Assembly: GCA_000934665.2 (NCBI GenBank)
Contig: KZ538288.1
Coordinates: 1-64,000 of the forward strand
Source: Catajapyx aquilonaris
Lineage: Eukaryota
Direction: 5' to 3'
Length of the DNA: 64,000 bases
The position numbers were made by a program, and so were the translations under genes. Positions 1 through 57,110 of the stretch are shown here, piece after piece. Under the pieces are notes generated by a model, which did not search any database, was not told the DNA's origin, and was given only the letters and a program-made list of their open reading frames with translations. The stretch's first letter is position 1, and each line of letters opens with the position of its first letter.

Positions 1-126
1 GACTCTGTACGCTCGTATACGTTCGCTAATATTTTTTTGATGAACGACCAAAAAATTTTAGAGTATAAATTGCAGGGGTCGAATCTTACATTTTTTTTGT
101 TCAGGTGCAACGTTTGCAAATTATTA

Positions 127-152
127 CAGCTGAATCCGGCTATAACAGCCTC
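127..152. mobile_element. Terminal fragment of the same MITE family
   Basis: TA|cagctgaatccggctataacagcctcg matches the family TIR. Confidence 0.55.
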
Positions 153-2632
153 GAAGGCTAGTCTACTCCCATGTATTTTTACTCCTGATGTAAGAGGCTC
201 ACTTTCTGCTTAATTTTTAATTACTGCGTTTAGCCAACTGGAGTGGAAACTTAGAACTCAAATGATCAGTTTGGAGTGAAAATTGTACCTTTGCATCCAA
301 ATATTTCGACCCCTAAAATTGCAGCTTAGCCGTTTTTTTTTAAATATAATTGTTCCAATCGATGCATATTACATTCAGTGTGATTAGTGGTTCTCGTCTT
401 ACTCCCAAAATTGTGGGTTTCCGGTCCCACAGGTTACCATCCGGATGTGGCACGAATAAATTCCGTTAATGAGAGCGCAACACACAAATTAATTGACAAT
501 GTGATTGCGGGGCACATACAATTCGATCGATCCGGTTGAAATTGAGTTATTAACAGTACAATCTTTGGGCCTGGTTCTGGTTCTGCCATCATGTTTTTTT
601 TTTTTGCCCGTATATCGTCAGAATCCGGGCTCGTCCCAGTAGCGATTACAGTTTTTTTCACGGTCGAGCGAGACGGTTCCCTTTGAACACGCCCAAAGCG
701 GGATGCACTTTGACCCAACGGGGGTTCACCTGGACTCAAAAACGTAGCACGTCCGAGTAATTTTTAGTGAAAATGTATATAAAAAAGTTGAGGTGAACTA
801 GACCGCGAATTAATTTTCGTACTTTACACACACACACACAAAAATATCCAACCGGATTTTAAGCGTCAAAACTAGTGCAAACAAATTTTCCGCTCAATTC
901 GAACCCGTTCATAATTCGCACCCGACACAAAATGTCCATTGGAGCCATTTGGGAGTTGACATTGTACTGCGACAAAACAAGTCCATGTTTCGCGATGAAA
1001 AGAGACGGACACACATCATAGACCGAAACATACAAAAAAAAATTTGAGGGGTCGTAGGAAAATGGCCTATTTTACATGAGTGGAAAACTTTTCCTCTTTA
1101 TACCTCCAAGGCGGTTTTAAAAACCCTGAGATAATCCGGAGCTGCACTAACTAATTAACTTTGTACGCGCACTTGAGGCACTTTTTATACCTAGTTCCAC
1201 CTTACATGGCGACGTGGAAAAAAGAAGAAGAAAAACGAGAAAAAATCCTCTTCTCCGAGAGGACCCCCCAACCCCAAATGGGTTTAGTTGACAGACGAAA
1301 AGCCCACTACAGCAATACGTTCCTTTAACAAATGTTCCCATTACCGAGCATAAATTCTGAGCAAAGGAANCCCCCCCCCCCCCAAAAAAAAAAAAGCAAG
1401 ATCGACCATGAGATGGGGAAAAAATTTCAAAGTCGAGGTGGTATAATAGGATGTTTTCCAGATTGAAGCTGTAGCCTGTGAGTGCTTTGTGCTGAATGAT
1501 TGGTATACAAGTTTAGACGTACTTCTTTTTAAAGAGGGCAACACTACAGAGCAGCAGTGTTTTAATATTTAAACACCTGTATACAGTGTTGTCACTCAGC
1601 ATTTCGTGTGTGAAAATACTCACAATTGATGAAAATAAATACCAACAAAAATAGTACACGAAGCAAGTTTAGCATATTTTATAAATATCTGCTCTATTTC
1701 CAGCCTCACTTCCTCATATCATGTTTAATATTTCTTCATGTAAAAATGCAGCTTCGTTGCTGAAGGTCTGTCACACATAAATGCAGACAAGACGAGTTTT
1801 TACGAGTAAGCAGGCTTTATGCAACTTTATACAACCCCATAAAAGACATACTTGACTGCTTATGTTGTTCGGCACCTAACGTTGACGGCTAATCAAAACA
1901 TCAAAAAAATTACAATTCCCTGAGAAAGTTTGAAGCATTCCACGTTTGTGAACATGCGTAATGCACACGTTTTGTTCTTTGATTATACGAACCGGGATTC
2001 AAATAATAAATACGCGTGAGTTCATCCGAACAAGGATCAATACGAGTCTGGCCAATTCTCTCATTGGACTCATGCCGACAAATCATTCCCCCCAATAGCC
2101 TCCCAGTAATTTTCCAAGCTGCAAACGATTTTGTTCCCGGGGCCTCGNCCTTTATATGTACTACCTAACCATTCCTATAGCCAATGGCCTCTTTGGATTG
2201 TAGCACCAAACCGCACTTGTCTGAGTCCAAGAGCCTCAGGAGTACATCAAAGAGAGAATTGCATATCTTGGCCAATTAATTCATAGTGCGGGAGGAAAAC
2301 CCTTGACGGGAGACGCTGATAGGATAATCACGTAGGCGTCTAGATTACTGGTTATGAGTGCGACTGCGAAATTAGCCCAGCCAGAGTCATCTTATACCCG
2401 GAACCCCGGATTGGGTGAGACTTAATTCAAGAGTCGCAAAGCACTGCGGATGTAACGCTGTAAACTTTGAATTTTAATATGTGCTTTGGTCACACTTTAT
2501 TTCCAACCTGTCCAATAAAACCCCACAGAGTTTCAATTGGTTTCATCAAACCAAAAAAGCTTGGAAACAGTGCAGAAAATTTAGAAATAGTGCACAATTA
2601 GGCCGAATTAGTAATCTGAAATTTGAACTTAC

Positions 2633-2674
2633 GTGTATTGTGGCATGTCGTTTCCTTTGTCTTGCAGCAATCTT
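2633..2674 (-). CDS. CTNND2: 42-nt phase-2/phase-2 coding exon, RLLQDKGNDMPQY(T), of the delta-catenin-like gene
   Basis: Acceptor tttgatttcgccttcttctcttccag| and donor CAC|gtaagt. It is in frame with both upstream exons and completes the LVDSCxRxLQxxG motif. It has an internal in-frame ATG at 2644-2646. Confidence 0.75.
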
Positions 2675-4010
2675 CTGGAAGAGAAGAAGGCGAAATCAAA
2701 CTCGTCACTCGCACTCTCCATGATGCAATTTTTTTCCCCAGCAAAAACCTGCTGGCTGTCACTTATCACACATTCAATGAGTCAACTGGCGTCACTGCCC
2801 AACAACCCACAACTTTTGCTCCTAAATCTACTCAAGGATATGACGCCACGTAAAGTACTGTACTGCACATTGTTTGAACAAAAATATTATTTCCCCTCAC
2901 ACGCCCTTGAGGTGTTACCAAGCTTCACACGGTGCTATCAGCCAGATAAAACCGCCACCTATCAAAGCTCAAAGTCCATTCTCGTATTAAGAACCCTGGA
3001 TAAATATGCAGATGACACACGTCGCATTCCACAGGGGGGGAACCGGACACGGTCCATTTGACCCTACTTGATGACACTATTGGATAGAATCACCCGTGCG
3101 AATTCGACCTGCAAGTACGTGCCCCGCAATTTATTGCCATTCCGTGTAATTGACAGTGGTTTAGGATCTGGCAACGATGGAGAAACTTGGGCCCCTCCAA
3201 AAAATTTCGGCTCCAGGAAACGCTGTCTGGAGGTTCAACCACCGCTAACTTGGTTTAAGGTCCCGGGTTTTTTTTTCTCCAGCTCTTCCTCCAGTTTCGT
3301 ATATATGAAAAAAAGTATAGCCTGTAGCCCTCAGAGTAGACAGACGCAGCTGCGACACTCAACTAAGCCCCATTTACCACTTGCAAACCGCCGAGCTCCC
3401 TCTGCTAACGACTGCAGATTACTGCTTGCCTCTTCCGATAAGGCCCTTATCAAACTGGCCCCAAATAGAATTAACATTACTCTGCACCGGGCTCCGCTGG
3501 GAGGATGTGTGCGTCACGTGTTTGTCACGTAAAACCAGGCCTCGGAGTTATAATCGAGTTGGGTTCGCCAGAGGGGGGCGAATGTGCAGCGCCGGGGGTG
3601 ACAGCTGGCAACGGTGATTCCAAGATGGCCACGCCGAGTTCAAGGCAGATTGGTCCCCAATGGAACCCAAACCCACCAGTCGAATTCTGATTTTCGGATA
3701 ATGAGGCTATACCCTCGTGGTGCAAGCGAGAGTCCAAAGTGGTCGAATCACACAGAAAATTTTGGGCCCCACACTGTCCACGTAGTACCATATCCCTCAC
3801 GTAGATGGCGCACTATTGCCACTCGCGGGGTCGTGCAGCGAGTGATACTACATGCACGTTTAGATAGAAATTTTTCATGCGCCCAACCCACACTCGCACA
3901 GCTCCATCGTTCTGACAACGTTGCCAGAGTAGCCTGTGACGTTAGTTCGGACCATTGGCAACGTAGCAAACGTCGGCCATTTTGTCCCCCGCAGTATAGC
4001 GTTGGAAATA

Positions 4011-4715
4011 CAAGTGAATCCGTATATAACATACTTCAAAAGATCGCGGAAAAAAGTATATTATAGACGAGGTTTGTTATAGCCAAATCATCACTTTCGC
4101 AACGAATATGTAGAAGTTTTCTGATTTCCATAAGCATTTTTAATGCCCTCTACTACATACTGATTAATGAAATACATCAAAAATGCAATATTACTGTGGC
4201 TCACACGAAAATTATGCAGGATCAAAATATTAATAAAATCCGAAATTTTCTTTTGGCTTTTCTTCTATTCGCAAATTTTATACTAGAAACCAGAGAATCC
4301 ATATTTTCCTTTCATGTGGCCAAAGAAAATGGTCTGTTATACCCGAGGTGAGTTGAAAATACGTGTTATATGGACTGTGTCATGCAATAATTTGTCAACC
4401 CACAAAAAAGTCAAAATTATTGAGCTAAGCCCAGGAACATATAATTACCTACAGGATCTTTATTCAGTTAAAATCACGCTGATGAAATCTGCATACTTCT
4501 GCCATAAATGACCGAAAAGAACACTGAATTAATTTCACAGTATGACCTTCAAAGCCCTTTTTCTCAAAACTGTTCTCATGTGGGTTGACTCATTATTGCA
4601 TAACACCGTCCATATCATGAGTAAAAATACACAGGCCTTATGGAAGTATGGCCTTTCGAGTCCATTATAACCGACAGTCTGTTACATCCGAGGCTGTTAT
4701 ATCCGGATTCAACTG
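4011..4715. mobile_element. Tc1/mariner (pogo/Tigger-like) MITE carrying a nested Sola-type MITE
   Basis: TIR consensus CAGTTGAATCCGGATATAAC (left caagtgaatccgtatataac, right gttatatccggattcaactg) with TA on both sides. The interior is homologous to 41151-41744. Confidence 0.8.
4372..4611. mobile_element. Sola1-like MITE (4-bp AWWT TSD)
   Basis: ~32-bp TIRs ggactgtgtcatgcaataatttgtcaacccac / gtgggttgactcattattgcataacaccgtcc, with TSD ATAT. Confidence 0.78.
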
Positions 4716-6319
4716 TACGTGAAGCGCTTATTTACCAGTACACCCACTATACAGAGATCATTGATAATGCGAACCCTACAAGCTGCACGAACTGTGGTGA
4801 GCACTTGGTTATACGCTCGTAAAAACAGATGAACAATGGCGCAGACTGTTGCACAAGTTGTTTCTCTTTAAACGGGGCTGTTGGACTAAACAATCCTAAA
4901 CTTTCTTTCCCGACTCTCCTCTTGAACTGTCCTCAATGTCCCAATCCTGACCGGGGGGGGGGGGGGGGGNNNNNNGGGGGGGGATACAAGTCGAAATAAC
5001 ACTGGGACTAACTGGACTGTTCTCCGGTTCAATTGCCTTGAGCCGGACACCTTTCATCAGAGTACTTGTCAAAAGGCAGCCGAGGTTTGTTTGGTCTACC
5101 TGTCCTCCCCAGCTGTCGATATTCAATGTCCAGAGCTTTCAAAACATGACCCGTCCCACTCTTCCGTCACATCCGCGGACATTTTTGACTGTCCCGTGTC
5201 TTATCCGACCATGTTTTCGACGCCGGGAGGTGTCACACACGCTTGTCACAACGTCCATTTTTTATCCCGAGGAGCTGCTTTGCCATCTGGCGAGGGCCAT
5301 TTCGCAAGGGGAGCCTAAAAGAGAGCGCCATGAATATTTGAGGATCCTTTCCTTGAGGCTCATCCCTCAGGAAAACGGCCATCTTGGATTCAGCCACAAC
5401 TCCTGCGGCACCTTCCAATCACCGTCTCGACAGCAGCCCTTTTCCGTCCTAAATTTATACCCGGGTCTTAGGCTCTTCCTGGTTGCAGCCTCCGTATCTA
5501 TTGGAAACAAGAGCGCTGGAAATAGCTTTTCCTAGAATCCACTTTTCCAACCCCCAGCAAGGTTTTGCAGGCTATAATTATATCAGGTTTCAAAATGGCA
5601 AATTCGAAGCGACCTATACCTTCCTCGTCACCTCGACAGGTGTGCCGGATCGATCCGAATCGACTCTTCTCCTATAGTTTCTCCCTGCACCTTTTCCTAT
5701 AGTATACAGTGTGAACAAGTGCAAAGACCTGTATACGAACTGCATCATTTGCAGCCTGGAGTTTGTATTACACTAAATCAATATAGGCAATGTAACTAGT
5801 GGCTACGTCCCCACGATTTCCTTTCCACTTCCCCTGCAATACTGTATACTAGAAATGGCCCTCCCTACATAGAACATCACTTTCATGTGACAGGCCCGAG
5901 ATGACAAATTATATTAATAAGCATGCAAGGAGTCGAGGGTGGGCGTCGCTTTAGCATGCGATCTAGTGGAGTCACACTCGGGTTAAAAAGAAGCGTTTGA
6001 AGAGGGGGGGGGGGGGGGGGTAAGTTTCATTCATGGGGACCGGTCACATCCGATCTAGGCTCGTCCTATCACGCCACCAGTCAAAAAAAGGGGGCCCAGT
6101 TCGAGACCCAGTCCATATCCGGTCCTTTCAAGCACCATCCAATAAAAACTTTTTGTCCGGTGTGGTCCTTTACTTGTATGCACGACGCTTAAGAGGCGAC
6201 TTCAGGTCCCTGTATGTTTTATTTCAATATATACATATATAAATAATAGGCAAAGCTTGTCTGTTTGTCCATTTTATACCCGCGCGAAGAACGGATTCCC
6301 TGCTATAGATGAATTGATT

Positions 6320-6560
6320 GCGCACCTGCATTCACGCAGCCTCAATGTTCTCACAACAACATTGCCATAGTTACTATAGAGGCCAAATTAACAACGCCTT
6401 GGCAACGTTGCAAACATCAGCCATTTCGTTCCCCGCCCCCAAATGTAGCGTTGGAAATAAATGCAGCCCTTATTTACCAGTGCACCCACTATATACTGAT
6501 AATGTCAACCGTGCAAGCTGCGCGAACTGTGGTGAGCACTCGGTTGCACTAGTTAAAAAC
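6320..6560. mobile_element. MITE family A copy, showing the empty site for the insertion at 4011
   Basis: ttggcaacgttgcaaacatcagccatttcg...gttggaaaTAaatgcagcccttatttaccagtgcacccactata is uninterrupted here. Confidence 0.6.
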
Positions 6561-8323
6561 TGCATCGTTACTTATTTTGTCTAGATTTATGCATCTCGTC
6601 TCTTGTAATTTTCTTTTGGTCCATGTTATACTTTCCGGTTGTTCCACGTCACATCCGGTCCGTCCCCCTCGAATACTTTGGTAGATTTTACTGTCAATGA
6701 GCTCCTCGAAATGGGTGCTATAATCGTGGCTTTTATGCTTTCCCCGTACTACATAGGGAATGGTCCTCCAGCAAAGTCGAGACGACAAAAAAGAGGCGGA
6801 AGAACTCGCATTTTCGGAACAAGTGAATCGTTAAATCAAACCGTATTTCCAACGACGGAGAACGGGGAGAGAAAAAAAAAAACTTCGCCCACAAGTTTTC
6901 CTTCCCTTTTCCTTGAAGCAGTATTTTCCAAGGACTTGCTCTCTACCAAAAATACCGGTCATCGGCCCAACATTATTTCCATAATCGATCATTCATACGG
7001 GGGCCACTTGTCCATGTCTCCAACCCCTCAAGAATTACAAAACGGCCGTCAGATGGAAGCATGTTTCTCTAAGAAGAAGAAATAGAAAAAAAATCTGAAT
7101 TTTTCAAGCTAAAACATAACAATAGGCTTTGATTAAAAAGACAAGCCACAGGTATCTGTGGAAAATCTCATCCGCGGATTCCTCCATTTAAGTGTAAATT
7201 CTAAGGGGGGTGGAAAAGCTCGCAGATCATCGATAAATCCCAATGACCCCAGACGTCGAGAGTTGGTCGACCTGGCGGAGATTTTGCGCGCCAAAAGCGA
7301 CGGAGATTGGTGCTTTTCGTGGCAGGAAAAAAAGGAGGATTACTGCTTGCTATATTTCACGGCTCGTAAATATTGTTCTTGGCTCCCTTTTAAAAAAAAC
7401 TGCCGAGTGTTTACCATCGGTTTTGCAAAATCTTAAGATTCGTACAAAACAACTGCAGAAAGTTCTCCCCCATCCATAAGTCACGCGAACTTAGTGCTAA
7501 TTATCTGATTTGCACACCCCCATCAATCTCGCAAATTCTCCATTTTTAAAAGTTTTTGGTTGTAAATATTTTTGCAAAAAAAAGTTCCTAGTGTAGGTAT
7601 GCAACACAGCATAGATCGTACATTAAAATTTGCCAAAACCTCATGCTGTTCATAACATATTGGAGCAAATCGTGCGTATACCTATTAAAATATGGCTTGT
7701 GTACTTAGTTGGTAAATAATATGGACTTCAATTAAACAGGATTCGTCCCAAATAAATTAATACCCATAATAATGCTTGTACAGGGGGATTCGGCAGTGAG
7801 CCCAAACTGAAATTATAATTAATTGTTATCAGAGGTATCATTAACATGAAGCTGTGCATGATCAATAGTAAATCCAGAACAAGTGGTTCTAGATTTACTG
7901 TCGGTCATGCAACCAGCCCTTAGAGGTCATATTTATTTATTCATTTCACATTCCTAGAGATCATACTTAATCATTATGAAAGATGCTGCATTAAACAGGT
8001 ATTGTCGCATTCTCTATATAGGTGAACGTCTTCTTACTTGTGAATGTTGTGACACAACAATGGCATCCCTGCAGGTCACATTATTCATTTGGCTTCTGCT
8101 CCTCTTGCTCATTTATATCACGTACAAGTTTCACCAGCTTGAGAGGGGGGGGGGGGGGGNTATTACGTCACCCAAACCCCACTGGTTGCCAACAAGAAAA
8201 CAACAAAAGCTACACAGAATCCAAAGCCCCCTACAGGAACATACCAGTATAGTAGAGTAGTTGAATAAAATACTGTGTGTGAGAGCCAGACAAAAAAAAA
8301 TAACCAGAGCAATGAACCAATAC

Positions 8324-8395
8324 CTCTGCAGAGTGGTGTACTCGGTGCGGGTGATGGTGTGCTCCTGGTGATGCTCCACCTTGCGGTTCACCAGC
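8324..8395 (-). CDS. 72-nt phase-2/phase-2 coding exon, LVNRKVEHHQEHTITRTEYTTLQ(R); probably an alternative exon of the same gene
   Basis: Acceptor ttttttctttcccctcgcatgcgcactgtttag| and donor CAGAG|gtattg. Nearly all codons end in G or C against an AT-rich background. The frame is open and compatible with both neighbouring exons. Confidence 0.8.
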
Positions 8396-8680
8396 CTAAA
8401 CAGTGCGCATGCGAGGGGAAAGAAAAAAGCGCCAGGAATTAGTGTTGCCAGGTGCGGGTCAATGCCAGGAGTGAGAGAAAAAGTGTGTGTGAGAGAGAGA
8501 GAGAGAGAAAAACGAGAGGGGAAAAAGAGAAAAGTAAGCACATTCAGCCGCCTTCCAAGCAAAACGGTCAAGCTGCCCAATGTCCCGTCAAAATGGAGTA
8601 GTTGAAGGCCACAATTTTCCAACATAAAAAAATATATTCTAGATATGATGCAACCGCCAGGAAACACTAGTTACTGTTTA

Positions 8681-8953
8681 CTATATGTGATTTTTTTTAC
8701 TAGCGCAACCGAGTGCGCACCACAGTTCACGCAGCGTGCACGGTTGGCATTACAGTGGGTGTACCGCGCTGCATTTATTTCCAACACTACACATTCGGGG
8801 GGGGGGGGGNGGGGGGGGGGACAAAATGGCCGACGTTTGCGACGTTGCCAAGGTTCTGGATCAAGCCTTTAAGGCTACAGAGGAGTAACGTTGTTGCCGG
8901 AATAATGAAGCTGCGCTAGTGTGGGTGCGCTCGGGAAAAAAAATCACAAATTG
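8681..8953. mobile_element. MITE family A with imperfect TIRs; other copies at ~3865-4825 (split by insertion) and ~6320-6560
   Basis: Ends ctatatgtgattttttttactagcgcaacc / gggtgcgctcgggaaaaaaaatcacaaattg, TA-flanked. The core ttggcaacg..gcaaacgtcggccattttgt...gttggaaata...gaactgtggtgagcact is shared by three copies. Confidence 0.65.
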
Positions 8954-9707
8954 TACTAGTATTTACTGTCGCATTCCCATCCGGTAAATTATTTCCTGGA
9001 TCCTGTGAAACTGAGGCTTTAATGTGCATGACGTGTGACCAGCAGGAGATCTGATCAAGCTCAGGCCTTCAACCACAACAGCTTGCTAAATGCAAGGGGC
9101 CCTCTCTTTGGCAGCCTCCTTTGATGAAACAAACACACATGCAAGTCTTGGGTCGGTGTTTCAGACAACCAACTTTCCCAGTGGTGCCTGACAGCAGGCT
9201 GTGGGTTTAATCCACGCGTCCCAAACAATTGCTCCAAAATTCAATGCTGTAAAAACCACTGTAAAGTAAGCAGGTTGCCAGAAGCAAGGAGGGCGGCTCA
9301 ACAACTAAGGGATGAGAATACAAAAAAAAACTACGTGCAATACCAGGAAAAAAGGGACAGCCAGACACCGAAATGAAGTCTACCTTGAATTTTCCATCAT
9401 CTGAATCGCAGATTTTTGGGAAGATCTTGGACCAATCCCGCACTTCATATGCTATACCCACCCATATTTATACAACGCGGTTACTCTTTTTTACCCGTGT
9501 GTAGTTTTCGGGAATCAATCCTCGATTATTAGGTTAGTCGGCACCTAACGCAATTAAATGGTGCACTGTACTACCCCCCATCCGGCCAAAGTTTCCTTGA
9601 AGCTTCATTTTTTTTTCTTTTTTCTGACCGTAGTCATTCCGGTGACTCGTCTCTGACACACATGTGTCATGCTGGAAATATTACAAGGGGGGTTTGGGTA
9701 TACTCAC

Positions 9708-9739
9708 AGGCAGGAGTCCACCAATTGGCTGCTGGCCAT
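9708..9739 (-). CDS. CTNND2: Start-codon-bearing coding part of a 138-nt exon (9708-9845) of a delta-catenin/p120-family gene; MASSQLVDSC(L)
   Basis: Acceptor tactgac...ttatttttttcttccag| at 9846 and donor CCT|gtgagt at 9707. The ATG (9737-9739) has strong context (AGTATGG) and in-frame stops upstream. Joined to exon 2633-2674 it gives LVDSCLRLLQDKG, versus human CTNND2 LVDSCIRSLQESG (recalled from memory; 9/13 identical). The symbol means 'CTNND2-like'. Confidence 0.72.
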
Positions 9740-9845
9740 ACTGTGTCCAGGACTCACAACTCCGGGAAGCTGGGCCCCCAGAACCTAGGCAGCCCAGGGG
9801 CCGTCATAGCCTCATGAGCACTGATAGGTCCGTCTTAGGCACTAC
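9740..9845 (-). other. 5' UTR part of the start exon, containing two uORFs (MRL*; MTAPGLPRFWGPSFPEL*)
   Basis: Lies between the acceptor at 9846 and the main ATG. It has three stops in the main frame, and two upstream ATGs whose ORFs close before the main ATG. Confidence 0.6.
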
Positions 9846-10278
9846 CTGGAAGAAAAAAATAACAAGAACGGTCAGTATATCATGAGAGACCCAGAATATT
9901 CAAACACGAGCGCCTGAGAGTTAGACAACCGCTCGAATGTAGCACGGGTTAGCTGACTTTCAGGATGAACAGTCTGGAAATGTGGCCGTTTTCCCCCCCG
10001 TTTAATTGTCGATGAAATTTTTTAAGTAGGGGTGATATTAGTGAAAAACAATATGCTCCAATATTTATCAGTTTAACTCATGGTGGGCCTTTTTAGCGTA
10101 AAATTCCGAAGAAATTCCTCCACATGGTGTTCCAGAAAAAATTAAAGCGAAATTAACTTTAAAATGTAATTAAATTAAAATTTTATAGTCACTATGGTTA
10201 CAAAATAATACTAAAACTCTGTACTATCAGAAATTCCAAAGAGTCCAGTCTGACAGCCCACCCTGTTCTGACGCCAAG

Positions 10279-10356
10279 GGTATGTTTAGCTCACGCTGGG
10301 AGGCGGTATGTTTAGCTCACGCTGGGAGGCGGTATGTTTAGCTCACGCTGGGAGAC
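10279..10356. repeat. Tandem repeat, 3 x 26 bp
   Basis: (ggtatgtttagctcacgctgggaggc)x3, with one mismatch in the last unit. Confidence 0.92.
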
Positions 10357-10454
10357 GGAAAAACTTCTTATCATACGCCATGGTAGTTGAGCCCCATTCC
10401 ACGAGGTGGTACCAGTTTGACCCTCAAATTGGGCCATTTCTATCGAAACTCTAG

Positions 10455-10514
10455 CGCGCCCAGTTCAAAAACCAGCAGATCGTCATATGACGATCGTAGG
10501 CTTCAAAGGGTTAA
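10455..10514. mobile_element. piggyBac-like terminus (single end)
   Basis: Palindrome gatcgtcatatgacgatc followed by ...caaaggg|TTAA; the partner end was not found. Confidence 0.4.
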
Positions 10515-11769
10515 CAGCAATCATGGCAGGTGAAGGGTATAAACAATAAATTAATAGTTTCCATCTCCTGCAGCACGACCCTGCATAAATGGATCAGTTT
10601 TCAGGCCTGGAAATATTTCCTGGAGACCCTGAAACCGGACCTTACGCGGCCCATTTGTTCCGACAATTTCGTCGCCATGCAGTTTTATTTTAGGGGGGGG
10701 GGGGGGCGAATATNATCTCTATCAATTGAGTCAGTGTTATGCAAAACCTGATGTAAAGACATGTCTCCTGATGGAAGAAAAAAAAAAATGTGCAAGGTCA
10801 AACGAACAAGGCTGTGTGTTGCACCCGGTCCTTTACCCGTCGGCCACTGACCCCGGCATCGATCCTCCAACATCCAACGCCGCCTCCGTCGATATCGTCG
10901 CTTTACTCGACGCGCACCTCTCTCTCTCTCCCTCTCTCCCCCAAAACTACGACATCCGACCTACGCAAAAGATCTCTCTCCGTATCTCCCCCCCTACTAC
11001 CCATGCCTCCAAACCAATATATTCTGGAGTTGACGGCTACTTAGAGCTCAGGCATTCCAACGGTCATTCGGCTAACCCCCAGAAGAGGCTTTCACACACT
11101 CGGGCTTTTCAGATTACAGCCCTGTTTTTGTCCTTNCCCCCCCCCCCCCTCTCTGCAATCCAGGAGACGCCTTTTTCCATCTAAGAGAGAAAAGAAGAAG
11201 CTTGGGTCTCCCCTTAGCACTCTAGCACCGACATTTTAGGCAAAGTCCTTGGAGAGATGCCTTCTTCTCTTTATCACTCGTAGGAACACCTTTACGTTGC
11301 GATAATTTTGATGGAAATGGCTTCTCGAATTATTAGAAAAATTAGGGTCGGTTGTGTTAGCTAAAATTAATAAGTAAGGGTTGAATTTTCGTCCCACTGC
11401 TAGTTACTGCTTACTTAACTTTTCCAACCTGCCAACACTGGTAAAGTTAGCAGTAACTATCAGTGAGACAAATTCTACCCCATATCTCCTCATATGTAGG
11501 TTTGTGTTGCGAATATTCATCGACGTACAAGTTCAACAAGATTGGTAAATCCAGCGAGCGTGATTCGTGTAGACTTTTTCTCATTGGGTAATGAGAAATT
11601 AGCCTGGCAACTTCGTTGAAATTGTTCAGAATTGTGACCAATACGACACGATGCGGTCCTGATGCGATTCTAATTGGACAACAATGACCTAGAATACTGT
11701 CATGCTCATTTCCCATTGACAGCAAGCAACCCACGAAAATAACTTCTAAATGGTGATGGCGGATAGAGT

Positions 11770-11951
11770 GGAGCCGGAAAACCGGAAGTGGCCGGCCACT
11801 TGAAGTTGACCATGAAACCTATTTTGGTCACGCTTAATCCGAATCCGAAAACCGTTTGTCGCTATCTCATGCGGTGTATGCCATGATCCCTGCACACAGA
11901 CAGATCGACAGAGCTGTTCTATGATACTTTTTTCCGATGAGAAAAAGTATA
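11770..11951 (+). mobile_element. Non-autonomous Helitron/Helentron (DINE-1/HINE-like) fragment
   Basis: aatccgaatccgaaaaccg core, an acag-type microsatellite remnant and a 3' stem-loop (atactttt...ccgatgagaaaaagtat). A homologous inverted copy lies at 38469-38622. Confidence 0.55.
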
Positions 11952-12134
11952 TGAAACCAGCTTCTAGCCATAGGTGTTGTCATGGCTTACTTATGATCCT
12001 GCACGTTGTACTTATACAGAAACCAAAAATCAATCCTGAAACACATCATTTTTATTTCAAAAATAGCTGGATTTTTCCGTCTTCCTTTTAAAGCCAACCC
12101 TTTTAAAGCTTCTAATAAGCCTATCTGGTATTAC

Positions 12135-12425
12135 CAAAGAGTTCTGCTATTATATAATATAATACCTAGAGGAGGTACTCCCTATCCTTTTCCATTAGAC
12201 AGGCTGAGGCAGCCGCCATCTTGTTGGAGGTCATATTGTTGTTCTAACAGTTGTCTAGCAACTGGGACAACAACCTATAATGACAACTGGGACGACAATT
12301 AGTTCAATAATGTCAGGCGTCCGCCATCTTGTTGGAGGTCATATTGTTGCCTGCATTGTTGCCTGCCTCACATTTCAGGCCGAGTGCCTCCTCTAGGTGT
12401 ATATATAATATAGCAGAACTCTTTG
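12135..12425. mobile_element. P-element-like (or hAT-like) MITE with an 8-bp TSD
   Basis: ~45-bp TIRs caaagagttctgcta...cctagaggaggtactc / gagtgcctcctctagg...tagcagaactctttg with a perfect TSD GGTATTAC. Contains two copies of the direct repeat ccgccatcttgttggaggtcatattgttg. Confidence 0.85.
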
Positions 12426-13329
12426 GGTATTACAACCGCAATGGGGGTTTCCATGGTCACTCTTTGTCAGTACGTAGATGCACCTAGCTCAGAAAACGAT
12501 AAATCTAGCCACTGTTGGTCACAATGTGTGTTTATAGTAAAGAGAAATGTAAGTTGAAAACTCGAACTCCGTCCAATCAGACTCTATTCTATCCATTTTC
12601 TAATTAGCAAGAGATATTTTATATTGATACTTTTTCCCATTACCTTGCCTGGCCTATATAGCAAAACGAACTTACTCTTGCTCATCAGATAGTGCACTGT
12701 TCAAGTCCCCAGTTCAAGAGTGCAAAGACATTGACTGTTCAGTCCAGCAACCAGTATTAAGAGGAGACACAATCACTAAAGAGTAAGTTTGGGCTCCAAA
12801 CGGCCATCTCTTTAGACCGGTTGCTGAGTGAACAATCAATAACATCTCCTTTCCCACTCTTGAACAGTGAACTTGAGCAGTGCACCACAAAGAGGAGGAA
12901 CAAATCACCAAAAATGAATACAGTTTTAAACAAGTTGCTGGGAAACGCTATTTTTATATTAAAACTGGCATAACTAATGTCCCGTTTCTGCTTGAAAAGT
13001 AGCCAAAAAATTTGTTAATCACTGCTGCGAACAATGGCTCATTTCTGACTGGTTAATATTTTCTGCAGACGATACTTCATTGTACCGGTTGCCATATTCG
13101 TAGACACTGAACGAAAGTGTAACTTTATGTACAAGAATGTACGCCCACTTATGAGCGCATGCCCTCAGTATTATCAATTTTTTTTTAATCGCTCTCCACA
13201 AAATTTGTTCATCAGATTCCTGGAGTGATTAACACTTCCTAACCCGTTCTCTCCCCCGTGGATACCAGTTGCCAGTCCTTTTCACTACCCAGTAATAACC
13301 ATTCCCCATCGCCCGAGTGATTTAGCGCC

Positions 13330-13670
13330 GCAATTGCTTTTCATGGCTCCCCCCCCCCCACCTCCTCGTACTACTACCCTCCTGATATGAATGAAGTGTT
13401 ATCCAAGCAGCCAGGTGAAACATAGCATCCCTCACCCAACGCAACATCGGAGGTTCTCCCAGGTACCAATAAATATGACAACAGAGGAGAGATTTGCTCT
13501 CCGTCTGGCCTCCATGGAAGCGATTCATCATCAGGGGGGTAGGTTTGGTAGAGTATAAGGTCTTTGCCATCTCCTGGTGAGGCATCTGCTCCAGATCTTC
13601 CGACCGCAAAGCACCACTTGAGTCCCCTGCCCTCGCATTCATTACTCCCAGCCGCCTATTAACGCTCCCT
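13330..13670 (-). pseudogene. Possible decayed LINE endonuclease fragment
   Basis: GVMNARAGD resembles the APE motif GDxNARTG, followed across frameshifts by TSFIS-GGSST-like residues. The similarity is weak. Confidence 0.25.
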
Positions 13671-17044: not shown

Positions 17045-17200
17045 CAAATGAAATAAATAAATAGTACCGTGAATGAATGAAAGAATTAATAAATGCTGTG
17101 AATTAATGAAAAATAAATAAACACTGTGAATGAATAAATAGTAGCCTACTGTGAATGAATGAAGAATAAATAAATACTGTGAATGAATAAATAAATAATC
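17045..17200. repeat. Degenerate AT-rich satellite (ctgtgaatgaataaata-like units)
   Basis: About five copies of actgtgaatgaat(g/a)aa with AATA runs. Confidence 0.7.
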
Positions 17201-33090: not shown

Positions 33091-34375
33091 CTGGAAGAGA
33101 GATCCTTCAGCATCATGATGCAAGGGCCTCTAATTTCCTACCATCAAGATTTCCCCTCCGGATATCTTAAATAGTTCATAACACTGTGCAAAAAGCAACG
33201 GAATTCATTAATATTTGATGCTGCCTGTACTCTTTTTTTTGTATATTCTAGTTCCCCCCCTTTTCCTGGCGCCTTTTCTTGTTACTTCCGACCTGTCATG
33301 ACTGCGCATGGGAAAAGGGGCTAAGCCGTCAAGCAGTTTCGACGTGGGGGTAGAAGAGGGAAGGTTTCTACCACCTACATTATGTACATATTTAGTAGGT
33401 GTGAGGATGGGGGAGAAGAGGCAAGAGATGGTAACTGCGCAGTGAAACACGTTCTGGACTGGTAGGCTACATTGTAAAGGGTTGGGAACGCTGTAAGTCT
33501 AACAAAACGCGTCTTACGATTCCGTTGGGTTATTGTACGACTTTGGGAGAAGGCTCCAGGAGATCGATTTTGGAGGAAAAGGAGGAGGGGACGCCCTAGC
33601 AAGGCCGCTTCCAAAAGGAAGCTGCAAGATTCCGCCAGACAAATTCTTGAGAATGAAGACCCTGCTGCCTATACAGTATTTTATCTGAGCCCAAGCCAGG
33701 AAAACATGATGGTATATATCACAAAAATTAGTCCAGAACATATAGGTAAAGTTGGAACATCCGGCCAAATTCAGGCATAATTTTTCGCAACTCGCAACAC
33801 TATATTCCGAAATCACAGCACTTTTTGTGAGCATCGGAGACATGAACAGATTGGGCAAAGCCACATTACTTGAGCCTCTCAAGAATTTCGGGCCAATCAC
33901 ACCGGAGCAATTTTTGTCCACTGAAATTTATCCCCGGACAAAAATCCAGGTCGGGGCTGGGTGGTTGCGAAAGGACGACTCCTGAGAGCCGTATAATCTG
34001 GTTGCCGCTGCTACTACCATCCCTGCTGTCGATGCTGTGCATTTCGGAACGGAGTCTGCGCCGTCTTCTCCAAAACGGGCCAACGCCCTATCTTTCCCGG
34101 AGCAAAAACCAACCCCCCCAACCCTCGACTCTTTTCCATGCAATTTCCCTGCTTCTCACACTGCTGACCTGTATCCAACTGACGCATAATCACCGACCCC
34201 CCAAAAAAATATTACAATGAGCTATTGTGGAACAGGGTGTCGATTAATGACAGTGACGTCACAAATTCGGAGGCGATAATTTTTAGGTTCAGCAATCCTT
34301 TGTCCTTGGTTGTGTGTAAGCCACAATGCATGCTGATATGCTGAAATGTGTAAAATCATGGTGTGCCGTACTCAC

Positions 34376-56009: not shown

Positions 56010-56630
56010 ACACGCACCGCACCCTTGTCTCCTTCTCCTCGTCCTCCTCCTCCTCCGTCGCCTGAGGGGCTAATCCTCCCAAAGAAATGCGAACAACCTC
56101 AGGGGGTTTTGTCCTCTTCTCAGGCCGCCGCCATCTTTGCTCACCCCTCCCTCCACACCCTCCCTCACTTGCTGTTCGAAAACACTTATTCTTTTCCTCT
56201 CTCTCTCTCTTTTTTTTCTTTCCAAAAGTCCCGCCGGTCCAGGGGCGGCCCAGGGTTCCGGTCGTATCCCACCAGTCACCGGAATTTTAAAAAGAAAAGA
56301 AAAACCTGAGAGGCGGCTAACCAAGTCAGCGGAATTCCTTTTCCCGCCCGATCACTGCACTCTGAAGCCGCCTCTCTCTCTGGGTCTGGCCGAGCTGCCA
56401 CTATGCCTACTCCCCGATCCGATGGCGTAGTGCATTCTGGGAGAGGAGGACTTCGCCCCCTCTCCCGGTCAAAACCCCCCTCTTCCCCTTAACCCTCCTC
56501 CTCCTCCTCCCTTCATTCCCCACCAGCCCCACCGGCACCTGCCCTCCCCCACTCCTTTCCTCATGTGGATGGGGAAAGGTTCGGTGGATTTCAACGCCAT
56601 TTTGGAGCAACCGGTTGGCGGCCTGTTAGA
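56010..56630 (-). promoter_or_regulatory. GC-rich candidate promoter or first-exon region
   Basis: Locally GC- and CpG-rich, with YY1-type motifs (CCGCCATCTT ~56128, CGCCATTTT ~56595) and a GC-box-like GGGGCGG ~56242. Several minus-strand donors are present (GCG|gtgcgt ~56017, GGG|gtgagc ~56145). Confidence 0.4.
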
Positions 56631-56649: not shown

Positions 56650-57110
56650 CTGTTGGCATTTGTGAGCATGTTCGCAGCCGGACACTGTTGGCTTCCTGAG
56701 CAGGTTGGAAGCATGTTCCTGTTGGCGTCATGAGCATGTTCCTGTTGGCGTCATGAGCATGTTCCTGTTGGCGTCATGAGCCTGTTACTGTTGGCGTCAT
56801 GAGTAGGTTGGCTGCCTGTTACTGTTGGCATCCTGAGCAGGTTGGAAGCATGTTCCTGTTGGCGTCATGAGCATGTTCCTGTTGGCGTCATGAGCCTGTT
56901 ACTGTTGGCGTCGTGAGTAGGTTGGCTGCCTGTTACTGTTGGCATCCTGAGCAGGTTGGAAACATGTTCCTGTTGGCGTCATGAGCCTGTTACTGTTGGC
57001 GTCAATGCGTCATGAGTAGGTTGGCTGCCTGTTACTGTTGGCTTCATGAGCATGAAGGCTGCATGTTGGCATCCTGAGCAGGTTGGTAGCCTGACACTGT
57101 TGGCATCTTG
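56650..57110. repeat. Minisatellite of interspersed 23-bp and 34-bp units
   Basis: Units ctgttggcgtcatgagcatgttc and ctgttggcatcctgagcaggttggaagcatgttc, with variants, in a higher-order arrangement. Confidence 0.92.

What the first reader, a model, noticed from the sequence alone, without database searches (positions are those of the whole stretch)
2633..9845. Hidden delta-catenin/p120-family N-terminus split over small exons missed by the ORF track
Seen: three exons with consensus splice sites and matching phase 2. Joining 9708-9739 to 2633-2674 yields MASSQLVDSCLRLLQDKGNDMPQYT. Recalled from memory: human CTNND2 contains ELVDSCIRSLQESG after its coiled coil. Here the protein appears to begin at this motif (stops lie upstream), and I found no coiled-coil exon in the window. 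Inference: the motif is an ancient helical module, and an armadillo-repeat region lies beyond the left edge.
Basis: partly seen in the sequence, partly recalled or inferred. Interest (0 to 1): 0.7.

Follow-up and report, generated by a model that had tools for sequence, protein, structure and literature searches.

The report
Arthropod p120/delta-catenin gene, first exons
These three small exons are the ordinary start of this arthropod's single p120/delta-catenin cell-adhesion gene; the one curiosity is a short helix shared with vertebrate delta-catenin that an optional exon can split in two.

Summary
Confirmed, and mostly ordinary. Three minus-strand exons (A 9845-9708 with ATG 9739; B 8395-8324, 72 nt; C 2674-2633, 42 nt) encode the N-terminus of the single p120/delta-catenin gene. 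The window's left end overlaps contig C7490, which overlaps C2266; these hold the in-frame linker exons, the armadillo repeats and a DSWV end. The A+C peptide matches insect homologues at 20 of 24 residues. B and C are frame-preserving; all four include/skip forms occur among annotated arthropod homologues. The LVDSC[LI]R motif also follows the coiled coil in amphioxus, hemichordates, annelid, brachiopod, nemertean and vertebrate delta-catenin. AlphaFold models it as the only confident N-terminal helix in an exon-B-skipped homologue. Pancrustacean proteins start at a Met just before it and lack the coiled coil. No exon-exon junction was seen in transcripts; no partner is known. I found no paper on the motif in limited searches. 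The scan had not noted this on other DNA.

The parts
9708..9845 (-). Exon A (138 nt): 5' UTR part 9845-9740 and first coding part 9739-9708 (Met plus first half of the LVDSC[LI]R motif); phase-2 donor
   Evidence: a 264-letter contig of run X1 matches 9708-9847 with no difference and begins exactly at the donor
9737..9739 (-). Start codon; equivalent to the Met that precedes the motif in amphioxus, Glandiceps and Lingula (internal there, after the coiled coil)
9754..9815 (-). Two upstream ATGs in exon A (9815, 3 codons; 9807, 17 codons), both out of frame and ending before the main ATG; a second GTGAGT donor at 9757
   Evidence: use not shown
8324..8395 (-). Exon B (72 nt, phase 2/2, frame-preserving cassette); inserts 24 residues in the middle of the motif; weaker donor
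2633..2674 (-). Exon C (42 nt, phase 2/2, frame-preserving); second half of the motif and the MPQY segment
1..958 (-). Intron sequence at the contig end that overlaps the first 962 bases of contig C7490 at 96% identity, linking the window to the rest of the gene (C7490 exons 1412-1625 and 4783-5032; C2266 armadillo exons 10590-13529, stop after 14921)

Best explanation
The exons are the 5' coding end of this arthropod's single p120/delta-catenin gene (the non-chordate 'delta2/ARVCF' orthologue), an armadillo-repeat protein that by family knowledge binds the cadherin juxtamembrane tail and, through its DSWV end, PDZ proteins. Shown: exon structure, linkage to the armadillo exons across two overlapping contigs, open frame, single copy. 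Translation starts at ATG 9739, at a Met that in several other bilaterians lies inside the protein after the coiled-coil head; the head appears lost in pancrustaceans (inferred from annotated proteins). Exons A and C together encode a 12-14 residue amphipathic helix, the best-conserved piece of an otherwise disordered N-terminal region; it most likely works as a short docking motif for an unknown partner (inferred, about 60%). Exons B and C are alternatively spliced cassettes (inferred from homologues, about 85%), so the gene can make forms with the helix whole (A+C), interrupted (A+B+C) or halved (A only, A+B).
For: Overlaps: window 1-958 = C7490 1-962 at 96%, the only long match among 48; C7490 7423-8326 = C2266 1-1360. 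All four exon combinations read open into C7490 exons D and E. Seven C2266 exons give 556 aa without a stop; top solved structure p120, 3l6x, E 1.2e-42; one genomic match for that exon; end in DSWV. Tree of 29 armadillo domains: inside the pancrustacean set, 96/90. Isoform forms among 132 homologues: A-C 35, A-B-C 25, A-B 5 (one of them, P0081, is A-B-C on reading), A only 7, motif not found 60; one mayfly shows all four. Motif in 116 of 116 further proteins, 113 of them vertebrate CTNND2 type. Mean column identity 0.84 for the motif against 0.33 for residues 20-180 and 0.75 for the armadillo domain in 39 rows. AlphaFold: helix 3-16, pLDDT 74/66, then under 50 for 19-180. Hydrophobic moment 0.55, reached by 213 of 5000 shuffles.
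Against: No transcript junction A-B, A-C or B-C was listed in the one run laid; homologous isoforms are mostly automatic annotations. The 116 motif-bearing proteins were found with a query that holds the motif, and the 39 rows were picked by me for having the A-C form, so both overstate conservation. The motif is degenerate in ticks, scorpion and horseshoe crab, and was not found in 60 of 132 records, including the copepod, decapod, springtail and fly records; these may be truncated models or true losses. The link between contigs rests on 96-97% (and in part 88%) overlaps, not on one contig. Structures were predicted for homologues, not for this protein.
Confidence: 0.93

Rival explanations
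1. Same gene, but a longer form exists: a coiled-coil head is encoded further upstream (beyond contig C511 or in an assembly gap) and is spliced in frame through an internal acceptor just before the ATG, as chelicerates and deuterostomes have it.
For: An AG lies two bases before the ATG; exon A is 138 nt, a multiple of 3; the 5' end of the transcript was not found; the assembly is in 20,583 contigs; ticks, scorpion and the myriapod keep the head.
Against: No coiled-coil profile hit in 86,939 bases of C511 (best E 5.1 there); a tick coiled-coil query gave no candidate in the genome (one query, no positive control); 0 of 57 pancrustacean motif-bearing homologues have the head; that AG has no pyrimidine tract; the X1 contig covers the whole exon with its stops.
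Confidence: 0.08
2. Same gene, but the motif is not a regulated binding helix: it is kept for another reason (for example lipid modification of the Cys or constraints of splicing), and exon B is included or skipped without effect on it.
For: Motif eroded in chelicerates and not found in 60 of 132 records; the difference between the two AlphaFold models is confounded by different species and alignments; Drosophila p120 is reported non-essential and without a distinct N-terminal domain (PMC3013132, passages).
Against: Conservation from insects to mammals at helix-periodic hydrophobic positions; vertebrates keep the amino-acid motif; exon B itself is conserved in sequence from ticks to insects.
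Confidence: 0.35
3. The exons belong to a second, partial or dead copy and not to the armadillo gene on C2266.
For: The exons and the armadillo repeats are on different contigs; overlaps are below 100% identity.
Against: Overlaps sit at contig ends, in the right order and orientation, and are unique; phases fit; one armadillo locus; exons intact.
Confidence: 0.02

Closest known systems
Insect p120ctn / 'catenin delta-2' (e.g. Ischnura P0020, Neocloeon P0039-P0044, Ceratosolen P0088-P0091; names as given by the sources)
   Same: Same three N-terminal exon peptides, same start, same include/skip options, 80-86% identity over the armadillo region, DSWV end.
   Different: First armadillo repeat reads like the crustacean/chelicerate type; exon B is two residues longer than in most insects; branches just outside the winged insects in the tree (82/89, not firm).
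Vertebrate delta-catenin (CTNND2)
   Same: LVDSC[IL]R motif, armadillo domain (58-61% identity), DSWV end.
   Different: CTNND2 has the coiled-coil head before the motif and no Met at the matching place; no exon-B-like insert in the 113 vertebrate rows seen; it is one of seven vertebrate paralogues, whereas non-chordates have one gene (PMC3141441, passages).
Chelicerate and myriapod p120 (Dermacentor P0014, Ixodes P0054, Strigamia P0060)
   Same: Same gene; ticks have a cassette at the same place, with included and skipped forms.
   Different: They keep the coiled-coil head, and in chelicerates the motif has decayed.
p120 isoform 3 of vertebrates (head-less form made by alternative splicing; PMC3013132 and PMC4148249, passages)
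   Same: A p120-family protein without the coiled-coil head that binds DIPA/CCDC85.
   Different: Here the head seems lost from the gene, not spliced out; whether the start Met is homologous to that of isoform 3 was not tested.

Membership tests
p120/delta-catenin subfamily | Central armadillo-repeat domain of the p120 type | tested here: met
   PF00514 hits on C2266; p120 3l6x E 1.2e-42 against beta-catenin E about 1e-8; the 120 best listed homologues are of this family where named; repeats were not counted one by one.
p120/delta-catenin subfamily | The window's exons and the armadillo domain belong to one gene | tested here: met
   Contig-end overlaps and matching phases; not shown by a transcript.
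p120/delta-catenin subfamily | C-terminal PDZ ligand DSWV (delta-catenin, ARVCF, p0071) | tested here: met
   Last C2266 exon ends in DSWV and a stop; 24 of 28 compared homologues end so.
p120/delta-catenin subfamily | N-terminal coiled-coil head of the vertebrate core members | tested here: not met
   No hit in C511, no candidate in the genome with one query. Not required of invertebrate members (PMC3013132 Fig. 1 legend), and absent from 57 of 57 pancrustacean motif-bearing homologues.
p120/delta-catenin subfamily | Single gene in non-chordates (delta2/ARVCF) | tested here: met
   One match in the genome, in line with PMC3141441 (passages).
p120/delta-catenin subfamily | Binds the juxtamembrane domain of classical cadherins | not testable with these tools
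   Follows from family knowledge only.
Vertebrate CTNND2 proper | Groups with CTNND2 to the exclusion of p120, ARVCF and p0071 | not tested
   The tree held CTNND2 only among vertebrate paralogues; PMC3141441 places non-chordate genes outside all seven.
Paxillin-type LD motif (consensus LDxLLxxL, recalled, from no call) | Leu or Met at the third position after the Asp-bearing start | tested here: not met
   The motif has Cys there in 36 of 39 rows; the spacing of hydrophobic residues is similar, so it is a resemblance only.

The most novel reading that the evidence does not exclude
The LVDSC[LI]R helix is an undescribed pan-bilaterian docking motif of delta-catenin, older than and independent of the coiled-coil head's fate: pancrustaceans dropped the head and kept the helix as the very start of the protein. 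An intron in the middle of the motif, implied also by hemichordate and brachiopod isoforms, lets a conserved arthropod cassette exon switch the motif off by splicing. If so, insects offer a direct handle on an unstudied element of a human neurodevelopmental gene.
Probability: 0.3. Interest if true: 0.55.

Novelty: new member of a known kind. Interest (0 to 1): 0.25.

Why it matters
As annotation it repairs a gene that the assembly splits over three contigs, and nothing more. The comparative side result has some value: a 2010 survey described amphioxus and fly N-termini as having no distinct domain (PMC3013132, Fig. 1 legend), whereas current records show the coiled coil and a second conserved motif in amphioxus, hemichordates, a brachiopod, an annelid and a nemertean, with the coiled coil missing from pancrustacean records and the motif eroded in chelicerates. 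No Pfam model covers either element. A conserved short helix at residues of about 120-135 of mammalian delta-catenin, with a natural splice switch in insects, is a cheap and testable lead.

Tried and rejected
Sequencing runs: no RNA holder listed; one run of unknown kind. In that run the bin holding exon B had no cover and no joint between the three exons was listed; neither is taken as evidence. Complex prediction of the motif peptide (P0036 1-32) with its own armadillo domain: no answer, score 0.01, alignments not used. Protein atlas with the 30-residue motif: no usable hit. The upstream non-coding exon was not identified; candidates at 34409-34376 and 56436-56145 do not end in AG, which the two-base overhang of the X1 contig would suggest. 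A whole-genome profile search for the coiled coil was not available, so that question stays at one query. 26 of the 70 long frames of the window were scanned against Pfam: 1 weak hit under the cut-off. Other armadillo loci read (C3017, C5549, C506, C382) look like importin-alpha types by eye and were dropped; part of that output was cut, and C52, C13759, C2782, C625, C10917, C4437, C1178, C6498, C467 were not examined further, standing in for them. A first isoform tally miscounted and was replaced. Paper searches for the motif text (0 papers), for insect p120 splicing, for CTNND2 N-terminal motifs gave nothing on it; the library lacks most subscription papers, and no supplements were read.
Full report
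Observation. On the minus strand the window holds exon A (9845-9708), exon B (8395-8324) and exon C (2674-2633), each between AG and GT, with phase-2 junctions. A and C have strong sites; B has a weaker donor. Strong site pairs alone are as common on the plus strand (4) as on the minus strand (5), so the proof is homology: the A+C peptide is identical at 20 of 24 residues to P0091 and P0039, score 110 against at most 41 for 200 shuffles; the A+B+C peptide is identical at 36 of 48 to P0020.

The rest of the gene. The window is the start of contig C511, so the gene runs off the contig. A Pfam Arm search of the genome gave 27 matches; those on C2266 are p120-type. One of these exons, P0001, found 3772 proteins at E 1e-30 or better, the best 120 listed, mostly named catenin delta-2, ARVCF or adherens junction protein p120 of arthropods, and p120 as best solved structure. 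It has one match in the genome. A query from the linker region of an insect homologue found two exons on C7490. Window 1-958 matches C7490 1-962 at 96%, and C7490 7423-8326 matches C2266 1-1360 at 88-97%; the first overlap is the only long match among 48, the rest being pieces of a short repeat. These look like allelic overlaps left unmerged (inference). C7490 exon 1412-1625 starts in phase 2 and all four combinations of A, B and C read open through it. Seven C2266 exons give 556 residues without a stop, and the last exon ends in DSWV. From ATG to stop the gene spans about 31 kb by these overlaps. A tree of 29 armadillo domains puts it among pancrustaceans (96/90) and, without firm support (82/89), next to the seven winged insects.

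Transcript evidence is thin. One run of unknown kind, kept as contigs, was laid on 1-11000. A contig of 264 letters matches 9708-9847 without a difference, begins exactly at the donor, and has 124 further letters on the acceptor side that the shown rows do not place (83 rows were not shown). That is what a spliced transcript of exon A would look like, but no joint between A, B and C was listed.

Splicing pattern. B (72 nt) and C (42 nt) both keep the frame. Among 132 homologues, a pattern count gave A-C 35, A-B-C 25, A-B 5, A only 7 and no motif 60; reading the rows moves P0081 from A-B to A-B-C. One mayfly has all four forms; damselfly, cockroach, hornet and fig wasp have two or more. Ticks have a cassette at the same place with included (P0014, P0029) and skipped (P0054, P0102) forms; the ostracod P0081 has it; Lingula has an unrelated 14-residue insert at the same junction; Ptychodera isoforms join the coiled coil straight to the second half of the motif. 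These are protein annotations; I did not see the genes, so shared intron position is inferred.

The motif. LVDSC[LI][RK]xL follows the coiled coil by about 30-45 residues in amphioxus, Saccoglossus, Glandiceps, Lingula, Owenia, Tubulanus and vertebrate CTNND2. It is in 116 of 116 proteins newly listed, which is biased because the query held it; 115 of them have the coiled coil. In amphioxus, Glandiceps and Lingula a Met stands at the place of this gene's start codon. Among the first 120 homologues the coiled coil is in 8, all chelicerate or myriapod where named, and in none of the 57 with a pancrustacean-type motif, 56 of which have a Met just before it. No coiled-coil hit was found in the 86,939 bases of C511 or with one tick query in the genome. 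Against universality: chelicerates have a decayed motif, and 60 of 132 records, among them flies, copepods, decapods and springtails, did not show it.

Structure. For the exon-B-skipped Rhodnius protein P0036 with 39 rows, AlphaFold gives a helix at 3-16 with pLDDT 74 and 66 in the first two blocks, then under 50 up to residue 180. For the exon-B-including Ischnura protein P0020 with 29 rows, residues 1-284 are all under 50 and the helix is gone. Species and alignments differ, so this is a hint only. The hydrophobic moment of the window's 13-residue core is 0.55 when B is skipped (213 of 5000 shuffles reach it) and 0.39 when B is included (1059 of 5000). Pfam has no model over the motif or the coiled coil in five homologues.

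How it most likely works. Shown: the gene, its exons, its frame. From family knowledge: the armadillo domain binds and stabilises classical cadherins and the DSWV end binds PDZ proteins (PMC3013132, PMC9289679, passages). Inferred: translation starts at 9739; the protein lacks the head that binds DIPA/CCDC85 in vertebrates (PMC4148249, passages); the A+C helix is a docking motif that folds on a partner (about 60%); alternative use of B and C sets whether the helix is whole (about 30% that this is a regulated switch). The likeness to paxillin LD motifs is recalled and fails at the Cys position.

What is known. Non-chordates have one delta2/ARVCF gene (PMC3141441, passages). The exons and their combinations are already in public insect annotations. 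PMC3013132 calls fly and amphioxus N-termini free of distinct domains; the records seen here differ for amphioxus. I saw passages of four papers and PMC3141441, and search listings for the rest; no supplements. Eight searches showed no paper on the motif or on exon B, within a library that lacks most subscription journals.

Verdict. A correct and sharp reading by the first stage, of an ordinary single-copy gene: new member of a known kind, interest 0.25. The undescribed helix and its splice interruption are the part worth a follow-up.

Noticed in passing
   Followed up: partly
window 9815-9754 (minus): Two short upstream reading frames (3 and 17 codons) in exon A end 15 or more bases before the main ATG; a second donor at 9757 would give an 88-nt exon without the ATG.
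   Followed up: no
window 1-64000: GC skew is negative in 29 of 32 bins of 2 kb, and no Pfam hit over cut-off in 26 long frames; fits a window that is mostly intron of a minus-strand gene (inference).
   Followed up: partly
G000 C511 start, C7490, C2266 start: Contig ends overlap at 88-97% identity, suggesting unmerged alleles in the assembly.
   Followed up: yes
L034:1708-1931; L027:1675-1899 and 2697-2909: A self-complementary element of about 225 bases occurs three times in introns of this gene at 96-99% identity; MITE-like.
   Followed up: no
window 56651-57067; 10279-10358; 17055-17198: Tandem arrays (periods 114/23/34, 26 and 28); the first lies beside a GC-richer stretch with a candidate donor at 56144.
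   Followed up: no
L003, L004 (G000 C5549 about 2300-9100): Two importin-alpha-like genes in tandem, one visibly more diverged (family name by eye).
   Followed up: no
P0129, P0130-P0132: Lingula has a 14-residue insert at the exon B position, and Ptychodera isoforms skip the first half of the motif; both point to an old intron inside the motif.
   Followed up: partly
window 33517-33927 (minus): Weak PAN_1 hit (E 0.0028, under the curated cut-off), probably chance.
   Followed up: no
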